The translations under genes and the position numbers were made by a program. Shown one piece after another: positions 3,198-35,447 of a stretch of 35,898 nt of DNA (positions are counted from its first letter, which is position 1; every line of letters begins with the position of its first letter). The DNA is from a virus. Where the stretch lies: the IMG/VR virus record IMGVR_UViG_3300009690_000003; one strand, written 5' to 3'. The notes under the pieces are model-generated. The model was given only the letters and a program-made list of their open reading frames with translations, was not told the origin of the DNA and ran no database searches.

Positions 3198-3419
3198 TTG
3201 GAGGGTCAGCTGGCATGCCTTGGCAACGCCCTGTTCCTGATCGACCTTCTCACCTTCCGGGTTGGATCAGCGATTGATTACACCGGGCAGGGGCCTATGT
3301 GGGGTCCCGCCTTGGATGATCTATCCCATCTCAAGTACCTACTCAACCACACACAGGACATGATCAAAGCAAGTAACCCGTGCGTGTTCGGCTGCCACGG
3401 AGGTCTCTGTGACAAGTAG
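3198..3419 (+). CDS. Hypothetical small protein (start uncertain)
   Basis: Open frame with protein-like composition (..LSHLKYLLNHTQDMIKASNPCVFGCHGGLCDK). Only a TTG at 3198 or an ATG at 3297 is available as start. Confidence 0.3.
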   Translation: MEGQLACLGNALFLIDLLTFRVGSAIDYTGQGPMWGPALDDLSHLKYLLNHTQDMIKASNPCVFGCHGGLCDK

Positions 3420-8073: not shown

Positions 8074-8567
8074 TGGCAGGAGATAACGGTGTGGTTGTGC
8101 TGGAGGATACGTTGAACCACGAGTGCTGGCGGCGGGTGCACTTTTTGAGCGGTGATGAGCGTGCTTTTCAGAAGGCATGGGATCAACGGCTGGTTTCGAT
8201 CCCATGGGAGAGCGCGGATGCGGTGATCACCCAGCGATATACCGAGGCCGGGATCCAGCACGGGGTGATCCTGTGGCCGCTGCGGGGGCAGATCGTGAAG
8301 TATGAAAACCTTGTAAATATTATCAAAGACCAATGCGTGGTGATTTGGGTGCTTTTTAAAAGGGATGACCGTGTGAGCACTGCGGTGAAGACCTGCGCCT
8401 GGTATTACTATGCGTTTTATGATGTTTGGCCGGACACGGCCTGGATCGGGGCGGACATGGCGGTGCATGATGGGAAGACGGTGGATGTAGACGGGCATGT
8501 GATCACCCTGGTTCTGGCAGATTGGATGGCGAAGATGGGTGTGGGTTTAGGCATAGCTGATAGCTGA
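8073..8567 (+). CDS. Hypothetical protein
   Basis: TAATG stop/start overlap with the upstream gene. The C-terminus runs into the heptamer repeat (GIADS). Confidence 0.55.
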   Translation: MAGDNGVVVLEDTLNHECWRRVHFLSGDERAFQKAWDQRLVSIPWESADAVITQRYTEAGIQHGVILWPLRGQIVKYENLVNIIKDQCVVIWVLFKRDDRVSTAVKTCAWYYYAFYDVWPDTAWIGADMAVHDGKTVDVDGHVITLVLADWMAKMGVGLGIADS

Positions 8568-8576
8568 AAGCTGAAA
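8556..8576. repeat. GCTGAWA heptamer tandem array (3 units)
   Basis: GCTGATA GCTGAAA GCTGAAA spans the stop codon of 8073-8567. Confidence 0.8.
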
Positions 8577-8585
8577 GGATAGAAA

Positions 8586-8699
8586 ATGAGCTGGTGGATG
8601 TGGATGGTAATTGGGATGATGATCGGGGCGTGTGTTGGCTTATTAATGTCGGCGATGTGCGGTGCAGCTGCTGTGGGAAGGCAGCGTGATGATGGATGA
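8586..8699 (+). CDS. Mini membrane protein (37 aa)
   Basis: MSWWMWMVIGMMIGACVGLLMSAMCGAAAVGRQRDDG. AAAGGA RBS. One TM helix. Confidence 0.45.
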   Translation: MSWWMWMVIGMMIGACVGLLMSAMCGAAAVGRQRDDG

Positions 8700-8802
8700 G
8701 CTGGCAGGTGTGGCCCTGGTTGTGATTTTGGCAGCGGCGGGTTTTTACCCGCTGTGGATGGTTGTACAGGTTATTATAGAGAATGGATCATATGATGGAT
8801 AA
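8689..8802 (+). CDS. Mini membrane protein (37 aa)
   Basis: MMDELAGVALVVILAAAGFYPLWMVVQVIIENGSYDG. Overlaps its neighbours at both ends (translational coupling). Confidence 0.4.
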   Translation: MMDELAGVALVVILAAAGFYPLWMVVQVIIENGSYDG

Positions 8803-9100
8803 AAAATATCAAGCGTTGATGCTGCAGGACCATATTGTGCGGATCCAGACGAACCCGCTGTTTGCGGAGCGCGATTCACGGTTGGCTGAGGCGAAGCGGC
8901 ATTTGGAGCAGGTGTGGCTGATGCTGGATGCGTACCGGAAGAAGCCGCCCAGGTGGGTGATTGTGGTGGACGGCGGCACGGTGATTGGCAAGGGGGTGGT
9001 GACGGCGATGAGCGGCGAGATGGCGTGCGTGCGGATGGACAACGGGGAGATATTGAAGGTGGACATCAACCAGGTGGATTTGGTGGAGGTGGAGAGATGA
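8783..9100 (+). CDS. Hypothetical protein
   Basis: 105-aa ORF with an ATGA overlap with the next gene. The C-terminal half is beta-rich (KOW/SH3-like appearance). Confidence 0.55.
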   Translation: MDHMMDKKYQALMLQDHIVRIQTNPLFAERDSRLAEAKRHLEQVWLMLDAYRKKPPRWVIVVDGGTVIGKGVVTAMSGEMACVRMDNGEILKVDINQVDLVEVER

Positions 9101-9459
9101 AATATTTTGCAATACGCCCTGTAAGGGGCATAACTCAAGAGTATGCTGATGCAATCGAGTTGCAACTTGAAACAATCAGAAAAGAAGGACATGAAATCTA
9201 CGACCCGATTAAAGACACAAATCAACTTGACTCTATTGGGTTGAGAATTTGCAATGACAATCGCAGGGCAATAGAAGACTGTGATGCCGTGTTGTTTTTG
9301 TGGGACGGCAAATCTACAGGATGCTTATTTGATTTGGGCATGGCGTTTGCTTTACGTAAGTCGGTAAGAACCGTTGTCGGGTACATGCCACGTATGACAA
9401 ATGGAAAATCATTTCAAAATATGGTTTTTGCGTGGGAAGAATTTGAGAATAAGCTATGA
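9097..9459 (+). CDS. Nucleoside 2-deoxyribosyltransferase-like protein
   Basis: MKYFAIRPVRG at the N-terminus and DAVLFLWDGKSTGCLFDLGMAFAL resemble the NDT / DUF4406-type Rossmann signature. First gene of an AT-rich island. Confidence 0.5.
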   Translation: MKYFAIRPVRGITQEYADAIELQLETIRKEGHEIYDPIKDTNQLDSIGLRICNDNRRAIEDCDAVLFLWDGKSTGCLFDLGMAFALRKSVRTVVGYMPRMTNGKSFQNMVFAWEEFENKL

Positions 9460-9584
9460 ATGACATAATCTTTATGATGATTTACCTGGCGTGGCTTTTT
9501 TATGAAACGATTGCCGAGCAGTTAGCTTATCGGAAGATGAGGAAAAACAAGGACTTGTTCTACAAGTATCTAATGATGAGATAG
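9456..9584 (+). CDS. Mini membrane protein (42 aa)
   Basis: MNDIIFMMIYLAWLFYETIAEQ... ATGA overlap with the upstream stop. Confidence 0.4.
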   Translation: MNDIIFMMIYLAWLFYETIAEQLAYRKMRKNKDLFYKYLMMR

Positions 9585-9597
9585 AAGGCGAGGAGTG

Positions 9598-9702
9598 ATG
9601 AATAAATTTCATTCAAGGCGTGAATTGATTTCACCGCCGCCGAAAGCGAGTGAGCAAAGGTTTTCAGTGGCAAATAGAACCTTAGACACAAGGAGTGAGT
9701 GA
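9598..9702 (+). CDS. Hypothetical 34-aa peptide
   Basis: The ORF ends in a TGATG overlap with the next gene's ATG. The RBS spacing is poor. Confidence 0.3.
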   Translation: MNKFHSRRELISPPPKASEQRFSVANRTLDTRSE

Positions 9703-9953
9703 TGGAAGCCGAAATTAGGTCTGTTCAGTATGTTTGCGGTTTAGATGACGAACAAATTGTCAGAGTCTACCTGGATTGGCTTTGTAGGGAAAAGGGTTTT
9801 GGACCTCTGATGATTACACAAACGATGGAGCCTGGACAGATGCCAACTTTTCATATCGACAACGAGATGATGGACAAAGATTTTATCAAACAGGTACTGT
9901 GTTCGATAGTAGATAAGGCGAAATTAGAAAGCGATCCTACCAATGAAACGTAA
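9702..9953 (+). CDS. Hypothetical protein
   Basis: AAGGAG RBS 6 nt before the ATG at 9702. AT-rich island. Confidence 0.55.
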   Translation: MEAEIRSVQYVCGLDDEQIVRVYLDWLCREKGFGPLMITQTMEPGQMPTFHIDNEMMDKDFIKQVLCSIVDKAKLESDPTNET

Positions 9954-10203
9954 GTTCTACAAAACCCTACTTACTTTTATCGCTGGCATCCTTGTTGGCG
10001 TAACCTGCACATTTTTGTACCAGGTATTCGGACGACCCGTGATGCCCGAAGTGGAAAAGTGTAAACTAAACTTTAAGGTGGATTATGACAAGATGGCGCG
10101 GGTGATTTTGGATGCGCCGGTGAAGCGGTGGGCAGAACCTAATTTGTGGCCGGGATTGGAAGTTAAGCTGTTGGGCGTCTATGACAAAAAGGACAAATTA
10201 TGA
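9943..10203 (+). CDS. Hypothetical membrane-anchored protein
   Basis: N-terminal TM helix (LLTFIAGILVGVTCTFLYQVF). Overlaps the neighbouring genes. Confidence 0.55.
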   Translation: MKRKFYKTLLTFIAGILVGVTCTFLYQVFGRPVMPEVEKCKLNFKVDYDKMARVILDAPVKRWAEPNLWPGLEVKLLGVYDKKDKL

Positions 10204-10490
10204 TGGATGAAATGCGGGTATGGACGTGTGAAAACGGGCATGTGCTGGGGCTGGTGCGGCGGAACGGCCGTGGGATCACGCAGCTGTTGGTGTACCGGCA
10301 AGCAGTGGATATGGCGGCGGAGGAGCCGCAGGCGCCGGAGGTGATGAGCATTGCCGAGGGGACGGTGGTGGACATCCGCTGCAGCGTGTGTGATGCGATG
10401 CGGACGTGGGTGACCGGTGAAGCTGCGATGGTGCGGTTATTGGAGAGCAGACCGGGGATCGGGCATACACCCCCCTGTAGTCCCCCCTAA
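10200..10490 (+). CDS. Hypothetical zinc-ribbon-like protein
   Basis: WTCENGH...RCSVCD (C/H ... CxxC). The stop codon TAA is the loop of the hairpin repeat at 10480-10499. Confidence 0.55.
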   Translation: MMDEMRVWTCENGHVLGLVRRNGRGITQLLVYRQAVDMAAEEPQAPEVMSIAEGTVVDIRCSVCDAMRTWVTGEAAMVRLLESRPGIGHTPPCSPP

Positions 10491-10499
10491 AGGGGGGAC
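10471..10499. repeat. C-rich hairpin repeat (CCTCCCC-TAAA-GGGGAGG family), copy 1
   Basis: GTCCCCCC TAAA GGGGGGAC preceded by a CCCCC half-repeat. Confidence 0.8.
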
Positions 10500-10514
10500 G
10501 GGGTGAAGCTGAGC

Positions 10515-10543
10515 TTGACACTGCCCAGTTAAGGTGATAGAAT
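10515..10543 (+). promoter_or_regulatory. Sigma70-type promoter
   Basis: TTGACA 10515-10520, 17-nt spacer, TAGAAT 10538-10543. Confidence 0.6.
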
Positions 10544-10549
10544 GGAAGC

Positions 10550-10700
10550 AGTTGAGCTACCAATTCTTTTGAGCGAGCTTTGTTTTTAAGAGCCGTTCTA
10601 CAATTAAATCAATTGTGGACAAAGGTCCGCAGTGTGGCTAAAAGTATCGCTCAGAGTTGGTAGCTCCGGCGGCTCGAAAGCCCACTGCGGTCTTTTGTTA
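10550..10700 (+). ncRNA. Structured leader / candidate cis-regulatory RNA upstream of 10721-11053
   Basis: Helix GAGCTACCAA (10554-10563) with TTGGTAGCTC (10657-10666). Helix TGAGCGA (10570-10576) with TCGCTCA (10647-10653). A competing or pseudoknotted stem CCGCAGTG (10627-10634) with CACTGCGG (10683-10690) is followed by TCTTTTGTT. Confidence 0.45.
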
Positions 10701-10720
10701 TCTGATAAAGGAGTTACCAA

Positions 10721-11053
10721 ATGAACGAGCAAATGATTAACAATGAAGGTCTTGAAATGGGGGAGGGAAGCGGTTATAATGGAACGGATGTTCTATTTAG
10801 CGAGGGAGGGACGATGACGAAGATGACCGCAACGTATCCGGAGGAGTATGTGCAGGAGATGGCGATGGAGGCGTTTGATGCGGTAATGGTTCGGCTGAAA
10901 TCACATGGCGATGCCGAGGTGCGGATGTTGGCTCAGGCGGCGGATGCGTATTTTTTGCTGTGGCAGCTGGCGGGCGAGGAGACGGCGATTGCGACACAGA
11001 CGATCGGGGAGTATTTACCGATGCTGATCAGGGTGATAGCGGATAGGGAGTAG
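10721..11053 (+). CDS. Hypothetical acidic protein
   Basis: AAAGGAG RBS. 110-aa helical acidic protein. Confidence 0.6.
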   Translation: MNEQMINNEGLEMGEGSGYNGTDVLFSEGGTMTKMTATYPEEYVQEMAMEAFDAVMVRLKSHGDAEVRMLAQAADAYFLLWQLAGEETAIATQTIGEYLPMLIRVIADRE

Positions 11054-11117
11054 CTGATAGGTGGTGGCTGGCTCGAATAGGCTGTCGATTGACAGGGAGA
11101 CTGGGGTGATGTAAGTT
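11052..11117 (+). promoter_or_regulatory. Promoter module A (duplicate of 12165-12230)
   Basis: Aligns without gaps to 12165-12230, with the first 42 nt 38/42 identical. TTGACA 11089-11094, 17-nt spacer, TAAGTT 11112-11117. Confidence 0.55.
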
Positions 11118-11123
11118 TAGATT

Positions 11124-11210
11124 GTCAGGCACGACACGTGGTTTTCCTCCTTCGAGACTCCTTTTACTCTTTTGGACGCAAGGCCCCCGAGTGATCGGGG
11201 GTCTTGTGGG
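11124..11210 (+). ncRNA. Candidate small RNA (promoter-to-terminator unit without an ORF)
   Basis: Bounded by promoter module A and hairpin 11180-11205. No ATG and no RBS. Contains UUCCUCCUU and ACUCCUUUU (anti-Shine-Dalgarno-like) stretches. Confidence 0.4.
11180..11205 (+). terminator. Hairpin terminator A (33-nt repeat shared with 12126-12159)
   Basis: AAGGCCCCCGA GTGA TCGGGGGTCTT forms an 11-bp stem with a T-rich 3' side. It differs from copy B only in the loop. Confidence 0.55.
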
Positions 11211-11271
11211 TTAAGAATAGAACATATTATAGAACATAACATTAGAGTTTCCCTATAATCGAAAAATGGTA

Positions 11272-11300
11272 TTGACAAGCGTATAGTAATTTGCTATACT
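11272..11300 (+). promoter_or_regulatory. Strong sigma70-type promoter with overlapping palindrome
   Basis: TTGACA 11272-11277, 17-nt spacer, TATACT 11295-11300. GTATAGT repeats and the TATAC-TAT-GTATA palindrome overlap the -10. TAGAACATA direct repeats lie at 11218 and 11230. Confidence 0.65.
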
Positions 11301-11332
11301 ATGTATAGTGAGCATATAGATGAGGAGAAAAC

Positions 11333-11740
11333 ATGAACATCATAGTGAAAAACCGAGACACCAACGATTTTTATAGGACCGCCAGTGTAAGATCGCTCAA
11401 TACGCTCGAGGACGGATATGGCAAGTATTTTGATAATCGCGATATCAACAAAATCATTAATGCAAAAGAGGTTACTTTGCCCTCAGAGCAGTATGCTGCA
11501 GCCCTGGCATATGACACAAAGCATGGGCACATTATCAACGAAGTGATTCAACCTCCAACCACAACACAGACTCACTGGCGTGACGAGCCAGCCACCAGCC
11601 GACAGTATGGCTATATTCGCAGTCTGGGTTATGACGTTGAGGAAAAATTAACCAAGGGCGAAGCCAGCAGGTTGATCGATATGATCAAGGCTGGAGAAGC
11701 TGGCAGCCTCAACCTAATGCGATACGATGGGGCCTACTAA
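11333..11740 (+). CDS. Hypothetical protein (AT-rich cassette, gene 1)
   Basis: GAGGAG RBS. 135 aa. C-terminal PATSRQYGYIRSLGY...LTKGEASRLIDMIK motif. Confidence 0.65.
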   Translation: MNIIVKNRDTNDFYRTASVRSLNTLEDGYGKYFDNRDINKIINAKEVTLPSEQYAAALAYDTKHGHIINEVIQPPTTTQTHWRDEPATSRQYGYIRSLGYDVEEKLTKGEASRLIDMIKAGEAGSLNLMRYDGAY

Positions 11741-11741
11741 G

Positions 11742-12098
11742 ATGACAAAAAAAACTTCGGTAGCATACAGGATCAGCGAGCAAGCGTTGGAGAGCTTAGA
11801 GATCATCACCCAGGCAACTGGCATCACAAAAACCGCTGCAGTGGAGATGGCACTGGCGGTGTTAGCAAATCAACTAAAAGGAGATACGCAAATGGCACAC
11901 AATCGCAGGCGATGGTTAGAGCAAAAGTTTTTTGATCTTCAGGTTGGCGATTTTGAGGAGATGGGCGATTTAACAGATGATCAGCTGGAAAGCCTGATCC
12001 GCGAAATTGAGCCGTTGTTAGAGAAATATCCTGATGGTGTTGAATCTAACGAGTTTATGGGTGAACTGGAGGTGTTGGTTAATTCGTACATTGAATGA
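11742..12098 (+). CDS. Ribbon-helix-helix (CopG/Arc-like) DNA-binding protein (AT-rich cassette, gene 2)
   Basis: The N-terminus SVAYRISEQALESLEIITQATGITKTAAVEMALAVLANQL fits a beta-alpha-alpha RHH pattern. The ATG lies 1 nt after the upstream stop. Confidence 0.6.
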   Translation: MTKKTSVAYRISEQALESLEIITQATGITKTAAVEMALAVLANQLKGDTQMAHNRRRWLEQKFFDLQVGDFEEMGDLTDDQLESLIREIEPLLEKYPDGVESNEFMGELEVLVNSYIE

Positions 12099-12127
12099 GC
12101 GAGAAAGCAAAAAAAGCGATTACTCAC

Positions 12128-12153
12128 AAGGCCCCCGAGCGATCGGGGGTCTT
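12128..12153 (+). terminator. Hairpin terminator B (copy of 11180-11205)
   Basis: AAGGCCCCCGA GCGA TCGGGGGTCTT, about 30 nt after the stop of 11742-12098. Confidence 0.55.
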
Positions 12154-12164
12154 GTGGGTGTATC

Positions 12165-12230
12165 AGCTGGTAGGGGGTGGCTGGTTCGAATGGGCTGTCG
12201 ATTGACGCGGGTGTGGGGATGTTTTAAACT
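12165..12230 (+). promoter_or_regulatory. Promoter module B (putative late promoter)
   Basis: Copy of 11052-11117. TTGACG 12202-12207, 17-nt spacer, TAAACT 12225-12230. It precedes the holin-terminase-structural gene string. Confidence 0.55.
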
Positions 12231-12353
12231 ATAGTTGCAGGTCCGATGCAGTTCGGACCACGACAGGAGATGAGCGCCCTGTCACCGGCGGTGGTTTGCC
12301 CTCTACGGTCCCCCCGACGCCCCGGTGGCAGTGGGTTTTTGTATAAGGATAGA

Positions 12354-12388
12354 TATCAGGTATCAGGTATCAGGTATCAGGTATTGGG
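12354..12388. repeat. TATCAGG heptamer tandem array (4 exact units plus 1 degenerate)
   Basis: TATCAGG x4 then TATTGGG, directly upstream of the holin-like gene RBS. Confidence 0.9.
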
Positions 12389-12402
12389 AAAGGAAAAGAA
12401 AC

Positions 12403-12756
12403 ATGGAAGGGTTATTGGGTTTTGTTGAACAGTTGATGGCGCTGGGCGGGTTTGCGGCTTTGATCGCGGTGGTGATCAATGTGCTGAAGACGTTGGGCGT
12501 GGTGAAGGACGGCCAGGCGGGGGTCTGGGCATCCGGCCTCAACCTGGCGGGATTGATCGGGCTGTTTGTGGCCGGGATCGTGGCGCCGGAGTTCGAGGTG
12601 GCCGGTTTGGATGCTACCCTGGCGCAGATCGCTGAGATTTTGAGCTTGATTTTTGCCTTTATTATACAGAATTGGGTTTCCAAAGGCACACATGTCGTGT
12701 TTTCAGGCGGCAAGGTTCCAGTGATCGGCAAGTCACACTCTGACGGCCCGTTCTAA
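12403..12756 (+). CDS. Holin-like membrane protein
   Basis: AAAGGAAAAG RBS. Hydrophobic segments FAALIAVVINVLKTLGVVKDGQAG and LAGLIGLFVAGIVAP resemble phi-LC3-type holins. Confidence 0.55.
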   Translation: MEGLLGFVEQLMALGGFAALIAVVINVLKTLGVVKDGQAGVWASGLNLAGLIGLFVAGIVAPEFEVAGLDATLAQIAEILSLIFAFIIQNWVSKGTHVVFSGGKVPVIGKSHSDGPF

Positions 12757-13945: not shown

Positions 13946-13981
13946 GATGTTGACGGCAATTGATCCACAGGTGGCCCAGGC

Positions 13982-14041
13982 GGGCCAGCGCCTTATGGTG
14001 CTTGGCACTGTGCTGGTGCGGCTTGAGGCCGCCCAGCTTGA
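13982..14041. repeat. 60-nt repeat, copy 1 (copy 2 at 24593-24652)
   Basis: GGGCCAGCGCCTTATGGTGCTTGGCACTGTGCTGGTGCGGCTTGAGGCCGCCCAGCTTGA fills the TerS-TerL spacer. 54/60 identical to copy 2. Confidence 0.85.
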
Positions 14042-14064
14042 GTCTGATTTACAAGGCGGTAATC

Positions 14065-15759
14065 GTGGCTGAGTTATTACAGGTCATAGATCCTGCTATT
14101 GCTCAGGCTGAGCTGGCAAAGCGGACGCTGGCCAGGCGGCACCTGGTGGATTTTTCGGAGTATGTGAGCCCATGGTATCACGGGTACCGGCATCACCGGC
14201 TGGTGGGGCTGTACCTGGAGCAAGTGGCTGATTATATCCGCAGCCGAGGGAAGGAGGGCATCGGCCGATTGATGATCACAATGCCGCCCCGGCACGGAAA
14301 GACGGAGCAGTGCTCACGGCAGTTCCCAGCATGGTTATTGGGACTGATGCCGGATACCCGGATCATTTTGACTTCGTATAACGGCGACCGGGCGAATGCG
14401 AACAGCCGCGGCGCACGTGATTTGGTGATGGACCCACGCTATGGGGCTGTGTTTGGGATGAAATCATCGGTGGATGCGCCGGTGGACCTGTCTTCTGACA
14501 GCCGGTCGGTGACGGCGTGGGACCTGGCGAACCCGCACAGAGGCGGTGTGGTGGCGGCCGGTGTGGGCGGCGGGATCACGGGTACGGGTGCGCATTTGAT
14601 GGTGGTGGATGACCCCTTGCGCGGACGTGAAGAGGCAGAGAGCCGGGCCCAGCGTGACCGCGTATGGGACTGGTGGACTTCTACGGCTTATACCCGTTTG
14701 GAGGATGGCGGCGCGGTGGTGCTGATTATGACCCGCTGGCATCCGGATGATTTGGCCGGTCGGTTGCTGCAGCAGATGGCGAGCGACCCGATGGCGGATC
14801 AGTGGCAGGTGGTGAATTTACCGGCGATATGGCCAGGTTCTCATGATCCCGCTCCGCAGGCTTCGGGGACAAGCCCTGGCACTTCGCTGGAGCGGGTTGA
14901 GCCCGCCCAGCTTCGGCAGGGGGACGGGGAACCGATACCCTCACGGGCACAGGCGACGGGTGACAGGGGAGATTGCTTCGCTTCGCTCGCAATGACAGAA
15001 GAAGAAGATCCCTGGCCGGTGCATTTCAGGGATATGCTGTTGAACGGGGTGTGGGTGCAAAAAGAGGATCCGTTGGGACGGAAGCCGGGCGAGGCGTTAT
15101 GGCCGGAGAAGTATTCTGAGGAGGATTTACTGCGGATCCAGACGAATGTGGGTGCGCATGATTGGATTTCGCTGTATCAGCAGAGCCCGATCCAGCGTGA
15201 GGGGGCGATGTTCAAGCCGGAGTGGGTGGACGTTGTTGACCGGATCCCAGGCAAGGTGATCGCCCGAGTGCGGTACTGGGATAAGGCCGGGACGGAGGGG
15301 GGCGGCGACTATTCAGCTGGCGTGTTGATGGCGATGACGAATGATAAGCATTTTTACATCGAGCATGTGAAGCGGGAGCAGCTGAGTTTTTATGTGCGCA
15401 ACCAAACGATGGCCAAGATGATCGATGCTGATGGGGAACGGGAAGGGCCGGTGGTGAAGACTTACCAGGAGGTGGAGCCCGGGGCAGCCGGTAAGGAAGC
15501 GGCAGCCAACACGGTGAAAGAGATGCAGGGCCGTGGGATTATCGCTGACCCAGTGGGCAATAAGAGTAAAGACGTGCGTGCGATGGCGCTTTCGACAGCC
15601 TGCGAGGCCGGTCTGGTGCACCTGGTGCGTGCGGAATGGAATCAAAAATTTATGGAAGAGCTGATGATGTTCCCGAAGGGCGTGCACGACGACCAGGTGG
15701 ATGCGGCTGCGGGTGCATATAACAAACTGGCCCGAGGCGGAAGGAGCGGCGTATTTTAA
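14065..15759 (+). CDS. terL: Terminase large subunit
   Basis: Walker A-like MPPRHGKT, Walker B-like HLMVVDDP, MTRWHPDDL. C-terminal nuclease region with the conserved pattern GVHDDQVDA. The GTG at 14065 was chosen because the upstream in-frame stretch is repeat DNA. Confidence 0.85.
   Translation: MAELLQVIDPAIAQAELAKRTLARRHLVDFSEYVSPWYHGYRHHRLVGLYLEQVADYIRSRGKEGIGRLMITMPPRHGKTEQCSRQFPAWLLGLMPDTRIILTSYNGDRANANSRGARDLVMDPRYGAVFGMKSSVDAPVDLSSDSRSVTAWDLANPHRGGVVAAGVGGGITGTGAHLMVVDDPLRGREEAESRAQRDRVWDWWTSTAYTRLEDGGAVVLIMTRWHPDDLAGRLLQQMASDPMADQWQVVNLPAIWPGSHDPAPQASGTSPGTSLERVEPAQLRQGDGEPIPSRAQATGDRGDCFASLAMTEEEDPWPVHFRDMLLNGVWVQKEDPLGRKPGEALWPEKYSEEDLLRIQTNVGAHDWISLYQQSPIQREGAMFKPEWVDVVDRIPGKVIARVRYWDKAGTEGGGDYSAGVLMAMTNDKHFYIEHVKREQLSFYVRNQTMAKMIDADGEREGPVVKTYQEVEPGAAGKEAAANTVKEMQGRGIIADPVGNKSKDVRAMALSTACEAGLVHLVRAEWNQKFMEELMMFPKGVHDDQVDAAAGAYNKLARGGRSGVF
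14830..15000. repeat. Composite in-frame insertion of four repeat modules inside TerL
   Basis: TGGCACTTCGCTGGAGCGGGTTGAGCCCGCCCAGCTT (14877-13, as in 24612-24650). ACCCTCACGGGCACAGGCGAC (14936-14957, as in 26686-26706). GAGATTGCTTCGCTTCGCTCGCAATGACA (14969-14997, identical to 26644-26672). Confidence 0.8.
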
Positions 15760-35375: not shown

Positions 35376-35447
35376 TGCCCCCGACCAGATTCGAACCGAT
35401 ATCTTATCCCTGCGAAGGAAAAGCTTTTTCCATTAAGCTACGGGTGC
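35376..35447 (-). tRNA. tRNA-like gene, anticodon CGC (Ala-type) but without G3:U70; two stem mismatches
   Basis: Hand-folded cloverleaf of 72 nt: GCACCCG TA GCTT AATGGAAA AAGC T TTTCC TTCGCAG GGATA AGAT ATCGG TTCGAAT CTGGT CGGGGGC A. U8, A14, G18G19 and the GTTCGAAT T loop are present. A3-G70 and U28-U42 are mismatches. A TATAAT lies 12 nt upstream. Confidence 0.6.

What the first reader, a model, noticed from the sequence alone, without database searches (positions are those of the whole stretch)
11052..11210. Duplicated promoter module and duplicated terminator define an ORF-less transcription unit (candidate sRNA or 6S-like late leader)
A 66-nt module at 11052-11117 aligns without gaps to 12165-12230. 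The first 42 nt are 38/42 identical, including GGCTGTCGATTGAC, and both copies have a -35 TTGAC, a 17-nt spacer and a TAAnnT -10. A 33-nt hairpin terminator (CAAGGCCCCCGAGYGATCGGGGGTCTTGTGGGT) is also duplicated, at 11179-11211 and 12127-12159, with the only difference in the loop. Module A is followed after about 60 nt by terminator A, with no ATG or RBS in between. That predicts a transcript of about 80-90 nt containing UUCCUCCUU and ACUCCUUUU, which are complementary to Shine-Dalgarno regions such as AAAGGAGU before 10721. Module B heads the holin-terminase-structural string. Its initial transcribed region shares TTGCAGG...CACGACA with A and has an added perfect hairpin (12240-12259). The layout recalls lambda PR'-tR' (6S RNA) with antitermination control.
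Basis: partly seen in the sequence, partly recalled or inferred. Interest (0 to 1): 0.66.

Follow-up and report, generated by a model that had tools for sequence, protein, structure and literature searches.

The report
Conserved small-RNA gene beside phage late promoter
A temperate phage of uncultured bacteria carries, just ahead of its lysis and packaging genes, a conserved gene-less unit that most likely makes a 90-base regulatory RNA from a second copy of the late promoter. The repeated hairpin beside it is a scar left by a two-gene cassette that inserted there.

Summary
Both repeats are real. The 63-66 nt module is 78% identical between copies, and the 33-nt hairpin matches at 32 of 33 bases. 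They have different origins.

The two promoter modules are an old, conserved tandem. In at least seven related phage lineages the same core (GAAYRGGCTGTCGATTGAC, 17 nt, TAnnnT) occurs twice, 219-489 nt apart, with no gene between the copies.

Copy A drives an ORF-less unit of about 90 nt. It has an unstructured 5' part with CU-rich, anti-Shine-Dalgarno-like motifs, followed by a 13-14 bp hairpin. Copy B drives the late operon through an almost invariant leader that ends in a canonical terminator (12277-12342).

The hairpin is duplicated only in this phage and a near-identical contig. It brackets a 915-bp low-GC cassette that all relatives lack.

The hairpin has no U-run. No Rfam family matches. 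No transcript data could be obtained. One lineage has B but not A, so A is accessory.

My best reading is a phage small RNA co-regulated with the late operon (confidence 0.5). A possible target is the ribosome-binding site of the neighbouring gene, which has an SOS-box promoter. Verdict: a new variant of a known kind, of moderate interest.

The parts
10752..10793 (+). Context: promoter TTGAAA-17-TATAAT followed directly by the only GAAC-N4-GTTC (SOS-box-like palindrome) in the window. It lies inside the 5' part of ORF 10721-11053.
   Evidence: The same promoter plus palindrome sits at the same place in L115, L111, L104, L052, L006, L102, L103 and L116.
10814..11053 (+). Conserved 79-aa core of 'gp110' (predicted three-helix bundle), the last gene before unit A. 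A long form starts at 10721. Candidate switch protein, function unknown.
   Evidence: L102 encodes only the short form. No Pfam, PHROG, NCBIfam, PDB-sequence or Foldseek match.
11052..11072 (+). Upstream flank of module A (AGCTGATAGGTGGTGGCTGGC). It matches 12165-12185 in this lineage only and looks like a remnant of heptamer or REP-like repeat ends.
   Evidence: This part is not conserved between lineages. In relatives REP-like hairpins abut the core.
11073..11117 (+). Promoter A: conserved core TCGAATAGGCTGTCGATTGA (11073-11092), -35 TTGACA at 11089-11094, a 17-nt spacer, and -10 TAAGTT at 11112-11117.
   Evidence: The 17-nt spacing and TAnnnT are kept in all A copies although the spacer sequence varies.
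11124..11210 (+). Predicted A RNA, about 85-92 nt and ORF-less. The start is inferred 7 nt after the -10 and the end is at or just after the hairpin.
   Evidence: Covariance model R1 scores 91 bits at 11124-11214 and finds exactly one copy per related phage. The consensus fold is an unstructured 5' part plus a terminal hairpin.
11142..11173 (+). CU-rich single-stranded region: UUUUCCUCCUUC (11142-11153) and ACUCCUUUUACUCUUUU (11157-11173). It is anti-Shine-Dalgarno-like.
   Evidence: UUUUCCUCC and UUACUCY recur across lineages, with indels between them.
11177..11208 (+). Hairpin A: 14-bp stem with a GUGA loop, followed by GGUUAAG and no U-run.
11212..12126 (+). Inserted low-GC cassette. It has its own promoter TTGACA-17-TATACT (11272-11300) and two genes: 11333-11740 (weak DUF3072-like C-terminus) and 11742-12098 (weak repressor-like hit).
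   Evidence: tblastn finds neither protein in any related locus.
12125..12159 (+). Hairpin B, the duplicate of hairpin A at the right end of the cassette. Its 3' flank GTATCAGCTGGTAGG matches the native flank of hairpin A in L113 and L111.
   Evidence: partial R1 hit, 37 bits.
12186..12230 (+). Promoter B: core TCGAATGGGCTGTCGATTGA (12186-12205), -35 TTGACG at 12202-12207, a 17-nt spacer, and -10 TAAACT at 12225-12230.
12237..12342 (+). Late-operon leader. It holds hairpin 1 (12240-12259), the alternative hairpin GACAGG/CCUGUC (12262-12283), and the terminator stem 12277-12335 with its T-run at 12336-12342.
   Evidence: The leader is 75-94% identical between lineages and hairpin 1 shows UA/CG compensatory change.
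12403..12756 (+). Holin-like first gene of the late operon. It is followed by a coiled-coil protein, a putative small terminase and the large terminase (13960-15759).

Best explanation
Unit A (11073-11210) is a conserved, independently transcribed, non-coding RNA gene of a temperate phage. A sigma-70-type promoter drives it, and that promoter carries the same 20-nt upstream/-35 element as the late-operon promoter B. The two are therefore probably switched on together. The product is an RNA of about 90 nt. Its first 55 nt or so are unstructured and rich in CCUCC/CUCCU (anti-Shine-Dalgarno-like) motifs, and its 3' end is a very stable hairpin. I infer that it acts in trans by pairing with purine-rich ribosome-binding regions. 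The best candidate target is the start region of the neighbouring SOS-box-controlled gene (gp110 core), which would give feedback on the lysis switch.

Unit B is a separate late promoter with an invariant, terminator-ended leader, so late genes need antitermination or attenuation relief.

The second hairpin copy and the 1.1-kb spacing in this window come from a two-gene cassette that recombined in at the hairpin.

Shown here: the conservation, the layout, the absence of an ORF, the fold, and the insertion history. Inferred: transcription, the 3' end, trans action, and the target.
For: The tandem of two cores is present in the window and in L006/L100/L101, L052, L103, L104/L092, L111-L114 and L115. 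Spacings are 219-489 nt and there is no gene between the copies.

The 17-nt -35/-10 spacing and TAnnnT are preserved while the spacers differ.

Model R1 finds exactly one A RNA per such phage, at 70-105 bits. It finds none in phages that use another late leader (L005, L012, L108).

The consensus fold has only the terminal 13-bp hairpin, and the CU motifs are unpaired. In the hairpin 87.5% of cells are paired and 3 pairs show double changes, with other stems in L103 and L081.

The minus-strand ORF is not conserved in frame and the plus-strand frames are not conserved (inspection). Neither cassette protein has a match in any related locus, the closest relative L115 has a single hairpin, and the hairpin's two flanks match two native types.

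The A RNA pairs with the gp110-core start region at -24.0, -26.2 and -22.0 kcal/mol in the window, L104 and L006. These rank 3/81, 1/38 and 1/21 among start regions, and the cognate pair is the best in both row and column of the cross-lineage matrix.

There is a precedent: the PR'-tR' transcript of Stx phages is the sRNA StxS, which binds an RBS (PMC7873438).
Against: The hairpin is not followed by a U-run, whereas the B leader in the same phages uses canonical U-tract terminators. Termination at hairpin A is therefore doubtful.

The A RNA is no better conserved (65-79%) than the neighbouring coding DNA (67-87%).

The -10 of A is weak, and the promoter scan does not call it.

The predicted pairing with the gp110 start region is unremarkable in L115, L111/L113, L052 and L103. 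Any CU-rich RNA will pair with G-rich SD sequences. No extended complement exists elsewhere in the phage, and the host genome is not held.

One lineage (L066/L102) lacks A altogether.
Confidence: 0.5

Rival explanations
1. Tandem late promoter with a terminated leader (6S-like by-product). Unit A is a paralogue of unit B. RNA polymerase starting at A is stopped at hairpin A, or at the B terminator, unless a phage antiterminator modifies it. The short RNA is a by-product with no function of its own.
For: A and B share the core element and the first transcribed bases: GUCAGG..CACGAC in A and GCAGG-[hairpin]-CACGAC in B. Unit B clearly uses promoter, leader and terminator logic. The unrelated late leaders of L005, L012 and L108 also end in terminators.
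Against: The shared start sequence is missing in the A units of L006 and L103. The CU motifs and hairpin are conserved there instead. A by-product would not be expected to keep unpaired CU motifs across lineages. Hairpin A lacks a U-tract. No Q-like protein was detected.
Confidence: 0.2
2. No separate transcript. The conserved core is an operator or activator site that happens to sit twice. Hairpin A is the terminator or 3' stabiliser of the gp110 mRNA, and the CU-rich stretch is its 3' UTR, possibly folding back on its own G-rich SD.
For: Unit A directly follows the gp110 stop, so transcripts from the SOS-type promoter at 10752 must cross it. The -10 of A is weak. The cis pairing with the gp110 SD is the same one computed for trans action.
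Against: In L115 a separate 46-aa gene and REP-like repeats lie between gp110 and unit A. In L006 another gene does. The unit therefore travels with its own promoter rather than with gp110. The exact 17-nt spacing and TAnnnT are conserved in all A copies.
Confidence: 0.15
3. nut-like antitermination site. The UUACUCUUU motif acts like boxA and the hairpin like boxB. Together they load host Nus factors and a phage protein on polymerase, so that it reads through the B terminator.
For: The order is boxA-like motif, 5-8 nt, then a hairpin. In this window the hairpin has a GNRA loop and no U-tract. The resemblance to boxA (UGCUCUUUA) is from my own knowledge and was not tested.
Against: The loop differs between lineages (GUGA, AGCAGCA, AGGCACC, GGC, UGAACGG), and the stem is 13-14 bp rather than 5. 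L115, L103 and L081 lack UACUCU. L066/L102 have the B leader and terminator but no A unit, so A is not needed for B. No N-like protein was found.
Confidence: 0.07
4. Small protein on the minus strand. The purine-rich complement (GAAGGAGGAAAACCACGTG) is an RBS for ORF 11132-11028 (34 aa).
For: There is a strong SD-like sequence on the minus strand, and an ORF is listed.
Against: SD-to-start spacing is 13 nt. L052 has no start codon. L006 has a 22-aa ORF in another frame relative to the conserved DNA. What similarity there is follows from conserved promoter DNA (inspection). There is no promoter on that strand.
Confidence: 0.03

Closest known systems
Lambda-type late control: PR', qut, 6S RNA, tR', and the StxS sRNA of Stx phages (PMC7873438)
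   Same: A promoter lies just upstream of the lysis and morphogenesis genes and is followed within about 100 nt by a terminator. Unit B has this layout. In both cases a short ORF-less RNA comes from the late-control region, and StxS binds a ribosome-binding site.
   Different: Here the small-RNA unit (A) is a separate, second copy of the promoter placed upstream of the true late promoter and leader. Its hairpin has no U-tract. No Q-family protein is encoded upstream: gp96 and gp110 have no detectable relatives of known function. The host group is reportedly Chloroflexota, not enterobacteria.
P22 sar RNA (a small RNA that blocks translation of the antirepressor gene ant; from my own knowledge)
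   Same: A short phage RNA is proposed to occlude the RBS of a small switch gene in the immunity/induction circuit.
   Different: sar is a cis-antisense RNA fully complementary to its target. The A RNA is encoded downstream on the same strand and would pair imperfectly (12-14 bp with G-U pairs). The target is only predicted.
C/U-rich-seed sRNAs of Gram-positive bacteria that pair with SD sequences (for example RsaE-type; from my own knowledge)
   Same: An unstructured pyrimidine-rich seed lies upstream of a terminal hairpin, and the presumed targets are G-rich SD regions.
   Different: There is no sequence or Rfam relationship. This RNA is phage-borne, and its 3' end has no U-tail.
Lambda nut / HK022 put antitermination RNAs
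   Same: These are RNA elements placed between a promoter and downstream terminators. The A unit has a hairpin without a U-tract, preceded by a short conserved pyrimidine motif.
   Different: The stem is much longer, the loop is not conserved, the unit is dispensable in a lineage that keeps the B terminator, and no cognate protein was identified.

Membership tests
Lambda-type PR'-tR' terminated late leader (6S RNA / StxS) | The promoter directly heads the late (lysis and morphogenesis) operon. | tested here: not met
   Unit A is separated from the holin by unit B, which has its own promoter. Unit B meets this feature.
Lambda-type PR'-tR' terminated late leader (6S RNA / StxS) | An intrinsic terminator (GC hairpin plus U-run) lies within about 200 nt of the start. 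| tested here: not met
   Hairpin A is followed by GGUUAAG and is not called by the terminator scan. Unit B meets the feature: stem 12277-12335 plus UUUUUGU, conserved in 8 lineages.
Lambda-type PR'-tR' terminated late leader (6S RNA / StxS) | A Q-family antiterminator gene lies immediately upstream. | tested here: not met
   gp96 and gp110 have no informative Pfam, PHROG, NCBIfam, PDB-sequence or Foldseek match.
Lambda-type PR'-tR' terminated late leader (6S RNA / StxS) | The short transcript is made constitutively in the lysogen. | not testable with these tools
Trans-acting bacterial or phage sRNA gene | Own promoter, no ORF, discrete unit conserved across relatives. | tested here: met
   Searches show one copy per phage in at least seven lineages with conserved -35/-10 geometry. 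No conserved ORF exists on either strand.
Trans-acting bacterial or phage sRNA gene | An accessible conserved seed and a 3' stem-loop. | tested here: met
   In the RNAalifold consensus only the terminal 13-bp hairpin is paired, and the CU motifs are unpaired and conserved.
Trans-acting bacterial or phage sRNA gene | Conserved complementarity to a target. | tested here: inconclusive
   The gp110-core start region is the best or near-best partner in 3 of 7 lineages and unremarkable in 4. The host genome is not held.
Trans-acting bacterial or phage sRNA gene | The transcript is detected with defined ends. | not testable with these tools
Any described RNA family (Rfam 15) | A match at or near the gathering score. 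| tested here: not met
   The only gathering-score hit is a tRNA at 35376-35447. The best E-value hits in 10480-12450 are far below threshold.
nut-type site (boxA plus boxB) | A conserved boxA, a short hairpin with a conserved loop, and a requirement for read-through of downstream terminators. | tested here: not met
   The loop and motif vary. The B leader exists without unit A in L066/L102.
LexA (Cheo-type) operator | CGAAC-N4-GTTCG within 2 mismatches at the module core. | tested here: not met
   By my count each module core has 3 mismatches, and neither is among the matches within 2. A true GAAC-N4-GTTC lies elsewhere, at 10782-10793.
Insertion scar (direct duplication flanking an acquired cassette) | The repeat flanks DNA that relatives lack, and relatives carry one copy. 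| tested here: met
   This holds for the hairpin only. It does not hold for the promoter modules, which are double in relatives without any cassette.

The most novel reading that the evidence does not exclude
The region is a three-part lysis switch of a kind not yet described. (1) An SOS-box promoter drives a novel 79-aa three-helix protein. (2) That protein turns on two promoters marked by a shared 20-nt element. (3) One of these promoters makes an anti-Shine-Dalgarno-like RNA that feeds back on translation of the switch protein. The other feeds a nearly invariant leader RNA whose competing hairpins (GACAGG/CCUGUC versus the terminator) form a new antitermination element.
Probability: 0.2. 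Interest if true: 0.7.

Novelty: new variant of a known kind. Interest (0 to 1): 0.48.

Why it matters
Almost nothing is known about gene regulation in phages of uncultured, reportedly Chloroflexota, bacteria from digesters and sludge.

This region offers several compact, testable elements:
- a new phage RNA family;
- a shared promoter element that marks just two promoters per genome;
- an unusually conserved late leader with a built-in terminator;
- an SOS-box-controlled small protein next to them.

If the A RNA proves to be a regulator, it would extend the StxS idea, that late-control regions spawn regulatory RNAs, to a distant phage group and to a dedicated duplicated promoter.

The analysis also shows how a moron cassette can enter a phage at a hairpin and duplicate it. 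That is useful when reading repeats in other phage genomes.

Tried and rejected
1. My first idea was that both repeats are scars of the cassette insertion. This fails for the modules, which are double in relatives without a cassette. I kept it for the hairpin.

2. Rfam at gathering score and at E up to 10 gave nothing relevant.

3. The phage GenBank collection gave no match. The window's own assembly is not held. The nearest record, G001, is the same phage with a 2.8-kb deletion.

4. The genome-contig scan with the core pattern returned 38 hits, all in unrelated bacteria and judged chance on inspection. About 40 of the 49 metagenome hits were likewise chance.

5. A minus-strand small ORF was rejected because it is not conserved in frame.

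6. The module core is not a LexA (Cheo) box: it has 3 mismatches and there is no enrichment.

7. Whole-locus RNAduplex target scans were dominated by long wobble-rich duplexes in GC-rich coding DNA. They gave no consistent target. Exact-complement searches were at chance level.

8. AlphaFold models of gp96 (pLDDT 77) and gp110 (pLDDT 66, core about 85) found no Foldseek PDB match with E below 1. PDB sequence profiles, Pfam, PHROGs and NCBIfam gave no informative match either.

9. A viral-contig scan for the hairpin found only L104 and G001.

Full report
**Observation**

Module A (11052-11114/7) and module B (12165-12227/30) align without gaps at 78% over 63 nt. The first 42 nt match at 38/42. 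The 33-nt hairpin repeat (11179-11211 and 12127-12159) matches at 32/33, and the single difference is in the loop. Shuffled sequence gives no such hairpin copies. It gives 0.26 near-matches to GGCTGTCGATTGAC, against 4 observed, 2 of them exact. Both modules read TTGAC(A/G), 17 nt, TAAGTT or TAAACT. No ATG or purine-rich RBS lies between 11118 and 11178.

First, the hairpin is a 14-bp perfect stem with a GNRA loop, followed by GGTTAAG. It has no U-run, and the terminator scan does not call it.

**Setting**

The window is a temperate phage or prophage. Promoter B is followed by a holin-like gene, a coiled-coil protein, a putative small terminase and the large terminase at 13960-15759. The stretch 11212-12126 has lower GC (35-49%) and almost no GC skew, unlike its flanks. 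It carries its own near-consensus promoter (11272-11300) and two small genes.

The window's own assembly is not held. The nearest record, G001 (an IMG/VR contig), is identical from 10936 onward and otherwise lacks about 2.8 kb, so it does not help reconstruct history.

**Comparative evidence**

I collected homologues of the holin and of gp110, with their contigs. I also scanned public collections with DNA patterns. Together these gave at least seven distinct related phage lineages.

In all lineages that have enough upstream DNA, except one, the 20-nt core (T[CTA]GAAYRGGCTGTCGRTKGA, which includes the -35) occurs twice on the same strand upstream of the holin. Core-to-core spacing is:
- 219 nt in L104, L111, L112 and L114;
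- 232 nt in L113;
- 346 nt in L006, L100 and L101;
- 375 nt in L052;
- 409 nt in L103;
- about 489 nt in L115;
- 1113 nt in the window.

Only the window, and the near-identical G001, has genes between the two cores. Elsewhere the interval holds the A unit plus REP-like hairpin repeats. The promoter duplication is therefore ancient and maintained. It is not a by-product of the cassette.

**The cassette and the second hairpin**

tblastn finds neither cassette protein in any related locus. The closest relative by gp110 (L115, 81% identity) has a single hairpin and no cassette. In the window, hairpin A keeps the 3' flank seen in L115 and L104 (GGGTTAA). Hairpin B keeps the 3' flank seen in L113 and L111 (GTAT[CT]AGCTGGTAG). 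Both window copies share a short loop (GYGA) that relatives lack. The simplest reading is that the cassette recombined in at the hairpin and the hairpin ended up on both sides of it. The 'duplicated terminator' is thus an insertion scar. It probably now also serves as the 3' end of the cassette.

**Unit A**

Alignments A1, A3 and A6 show the following features.
- The -35 is conserved, the spacing is exactly 17 nt, and the -10 is TAnnnT, while the spacer sequences differ.
- In most lineages the start sequence is GUCAGGCACGAC.
- There are one or two CU-rich motifs (UUUUCCUCCUU, UUACUCY, or UUCUCCU), separated by linkers of variable length.
- The terminal hairpin stem is kept through G-C to A-U and C-G to U-A changes. 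In L103 and L081 the stem has a quite different sequence. Pairing holds in 87.5% of cells and 3 pairs have double changes.

RNAalifold predicts only the terminal hairpin as consensus structure, which leaves the roughly 55-nt CU-rich part unpaired.

A covariance model built on these sequences finds exactly one full copy in every module-bearing phage, including the window at 11124-11214 (91 bits). It finds only the hairpin half at 12125-12162. It finds nothing in phages that use another late leader (L005, L012, L108).

L103 and L081 carry a long version (about 230 nt) with a strongly folded insert between two CU motifs (z = -4.7).

No ORF is conserved on either strand. The minus-strand 34-aa ORF lacks a start in L052 and is in a different frame in L006.

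No Rfam family matches.

One lineage (L066/L102) has gp96, gp110 and unit B but no unit A. A is therefore accessory and not required for late transcription.

**Unit B**

From the predicted start (about 12237) to CACCGG the leader is almost invariant in eight lineages. The holins of these lineages are only 72-88% identical in protein, and about 72-82% in DNA for the five compared.

- Hairpin 1 shows a U-A to C-G compensatory change in three lineages and a U-G intermediate in one.
- The terminator's 5' arm (GCGCCCUGUCACCGG) can pair with the downstream arm (CCGGUGACAGGGCG, followed by a U-run). Part of it (CCUGUC) can instead pair with an identical upstream GACAGG. This makes a small competing hairpin.

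This is the architecture of a regulated terminator. Unit B, not unit A, is the counterpart of lambda PR'-tR'. Phages with other late promoters (L005, L012, L108) also place a terminator-ended leader before the same holin family. Control of late genes by read-through therefore seems general in this group. What relieves termination is unknown.

**Candidate regulators**

gp96 (a zinc-ribbon-like beta protein) and gp110 co-occur with the module and B leader in every lineage with enough upstream DNA. They are absent from L005, L012 and L108. Neither has a detectable relative of known function by Pfam, PHROGs, NCBIfam, PDB sequence profiles or Foldseek on AlphaFold models.

While checking whether the module core is a LexA box (it is not), I found the only GAAC-N4-GTTC palindrome of the window at 10782-10793. 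It sits directly after TTGAAA-17-TATAAT (10752-10780). It is followed by GAGGGAGGG and an ATG at 10814. The arrangement is conserved at the same place in all eight other lineages examined. It lies inside the 5' part of ORF 10721-11053, which AlphaFold predicts as disordered. L102 encodes only the short 80-aa form.

The gene immediately upstream of units A and B therefore looks like an SOS-type, operator-controlled small three-helix protein. It is a plausible induction switch. That role is an inference.

**How unit A most likely works**

The conserved geometry points to a small RNA transcribed from a promoter that shares its control element with the late promoter. Its conserved, unpaired CCUCC/CUCCU motifs resemble the 3' end of 16S rRNA and would pair with purine-rich ribosome-binding regions.

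Within the phage, the best candidate target is the start region of the gp110 core. Duplex energies are:

| Lineage | Energy (kcal/mol) | Rank among start regions of the locus |
|---|---|---|
| Window | -24.0 | 3 of 81 |
| L104 | -26.2 | 1 of 38 |
| L006 | -22.0 | 1 of 21 |

The runs of 12-14 bp cover the SD, and in two of these lineages the start codon as well. In a cross-lineage matrix these three cognate pairs are the best in both their row and their column.

In L115, L111/L113, L052 and L103 the pairing is unremarkable. In L052 gp110 is frameshifted. Any CU-rich RNA favours G-rich SDs, so this is a lead and not a finding. Whole-locus scans and exact-complement searches gave no other target, and host targets cannot be examined.

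The closest precedent is StxS, the PR'-tR' transcript of Stx phages, which acts as an sRNA on an RBS (PMC7873438).

**Rivals**

- A 6S-like by-product of a tandem late promoter (0.20).
- No separate transcript, with the hairpin serving as the gp110 terminator and the CU stretch as its 3' UTR (0.15).
- A nut-like antitermination site (0.07). This is weakened by the variable loop and by the lineage that keeps B without A.
- A minus-strand small protein (0.03).

**Limits**

Everything about transcription is inferred from sequence. The window's own genome is not held. The host assignment (Chloroflexota) comes from an earlier unchecked note.

**Verdict**

Unit A is a new, narrowly distributed phage RNA family in a known kind of place, the late-control region, with an unusual layout: a dedicated second copy of the late promoter and a hairpin without a U-tract. 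Interest is moderate.

Noticed in passing
window 10752-10820: Promoter TTGAAA-17-TATAAT is followed at once by the only GAAC-N4-GTTC palindrome of the window, then SD GAGGGAGGG and ATG 10814. All of this lies inside the annotated 5' part of ORF 10721-11053, and the arrangement is conserved in all eight other lineages examined. The conserved 'GYNGTDVL' peptide may reflect promoter/operator DNA rather than protein.
   Followed up: partly
window about 8135-10935, compared with L001 (G001) 3265-3330: The nearest public contig (IMGVR_UViG_3300028593_000093) is identical to the window except for a deletion of about 2.8 kb between short GGCGGCGG repeats. The deletion removes gp96, the SOS-box promoter and the first half of gp110. 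It may be a defective variant or an assembly artefact.
   Followed up: partly
L103 4020-4066 and 4430-4475; L111 2520-2560 and 2740-2779; L052 1640-1685: REP-like hairpin repeats (...GGCACTTCGCTGA-hairpin-CAGCTCG) abut the core of both promoters in most relatives. The upstream flanks of A and B therefore look alike within a lineage but not between lineages. The window's 11052-11072 / 12165-12185 similarity seems to be a remnant of this.
   Followed up: partly
window 12354-12388; L052 1440-1465; L116 1379-1488; L105 36-70: Short tandem heptamer arrays sit right after hairpins, terminators or stop codons in this phage group: TATCAGG x4, GGTATTA x3, and (GATAGYT)n running to the contig end in L116, plus GGTGAAT-like units. 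Their role is unknown.
   Followed up: no
L115 4520-4715: The closest relative carries a different moron at a different spot. Between gp110 and unit A it has a 46-aa predicted membrane protein with its own TATAAT promoter and RBS. The region around unit A seems to be a hot spot for cassette gain.
   Followed up: no
L103 4108-4340; L081 1-190: There is a long variant of the A RNA (about 230 nt) with a strongly folded domain inserted between two CU motifs (MFE -93 kcal/mol, z = -4.7). In L103 the first CU motif is paired with an upstream GAGGGUCAC.
   Followed up: partly
L005 3860-3980; L012 3890-4020; L108 280-400: Phages with a related holin but no module use a consensus sigma-70 promoter followed by a different conserved leader (CTCAGTAACTCTGAGGACTGGTCA.CCAGCCCGGAGTGTGTC...) that ends in a U-tract terminator. 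This is a second type of terminated late leader.
   Followed up: no
window 10515-10700: Promoter TTGACA-17-TAGAAT is followed by about 170 nt without an ORF and ends in GGTCCGCAGTGTGG...CCCACTGCGGTCTTTTGTT (hairpin plus U-run). It is conserved in L052, L092, L115 and L111. This looks like another ORF-less unit or attenuator ahead of gp110, and it is the subject of another first-stage note.
   Followed up: no
L052 845-1145; L066 2204-2400: The gp110 homologue is split over two frames in these two contigs, so it is frameshifted or mis-assembled. L052 still keeps units A and B.
   Followed up: no
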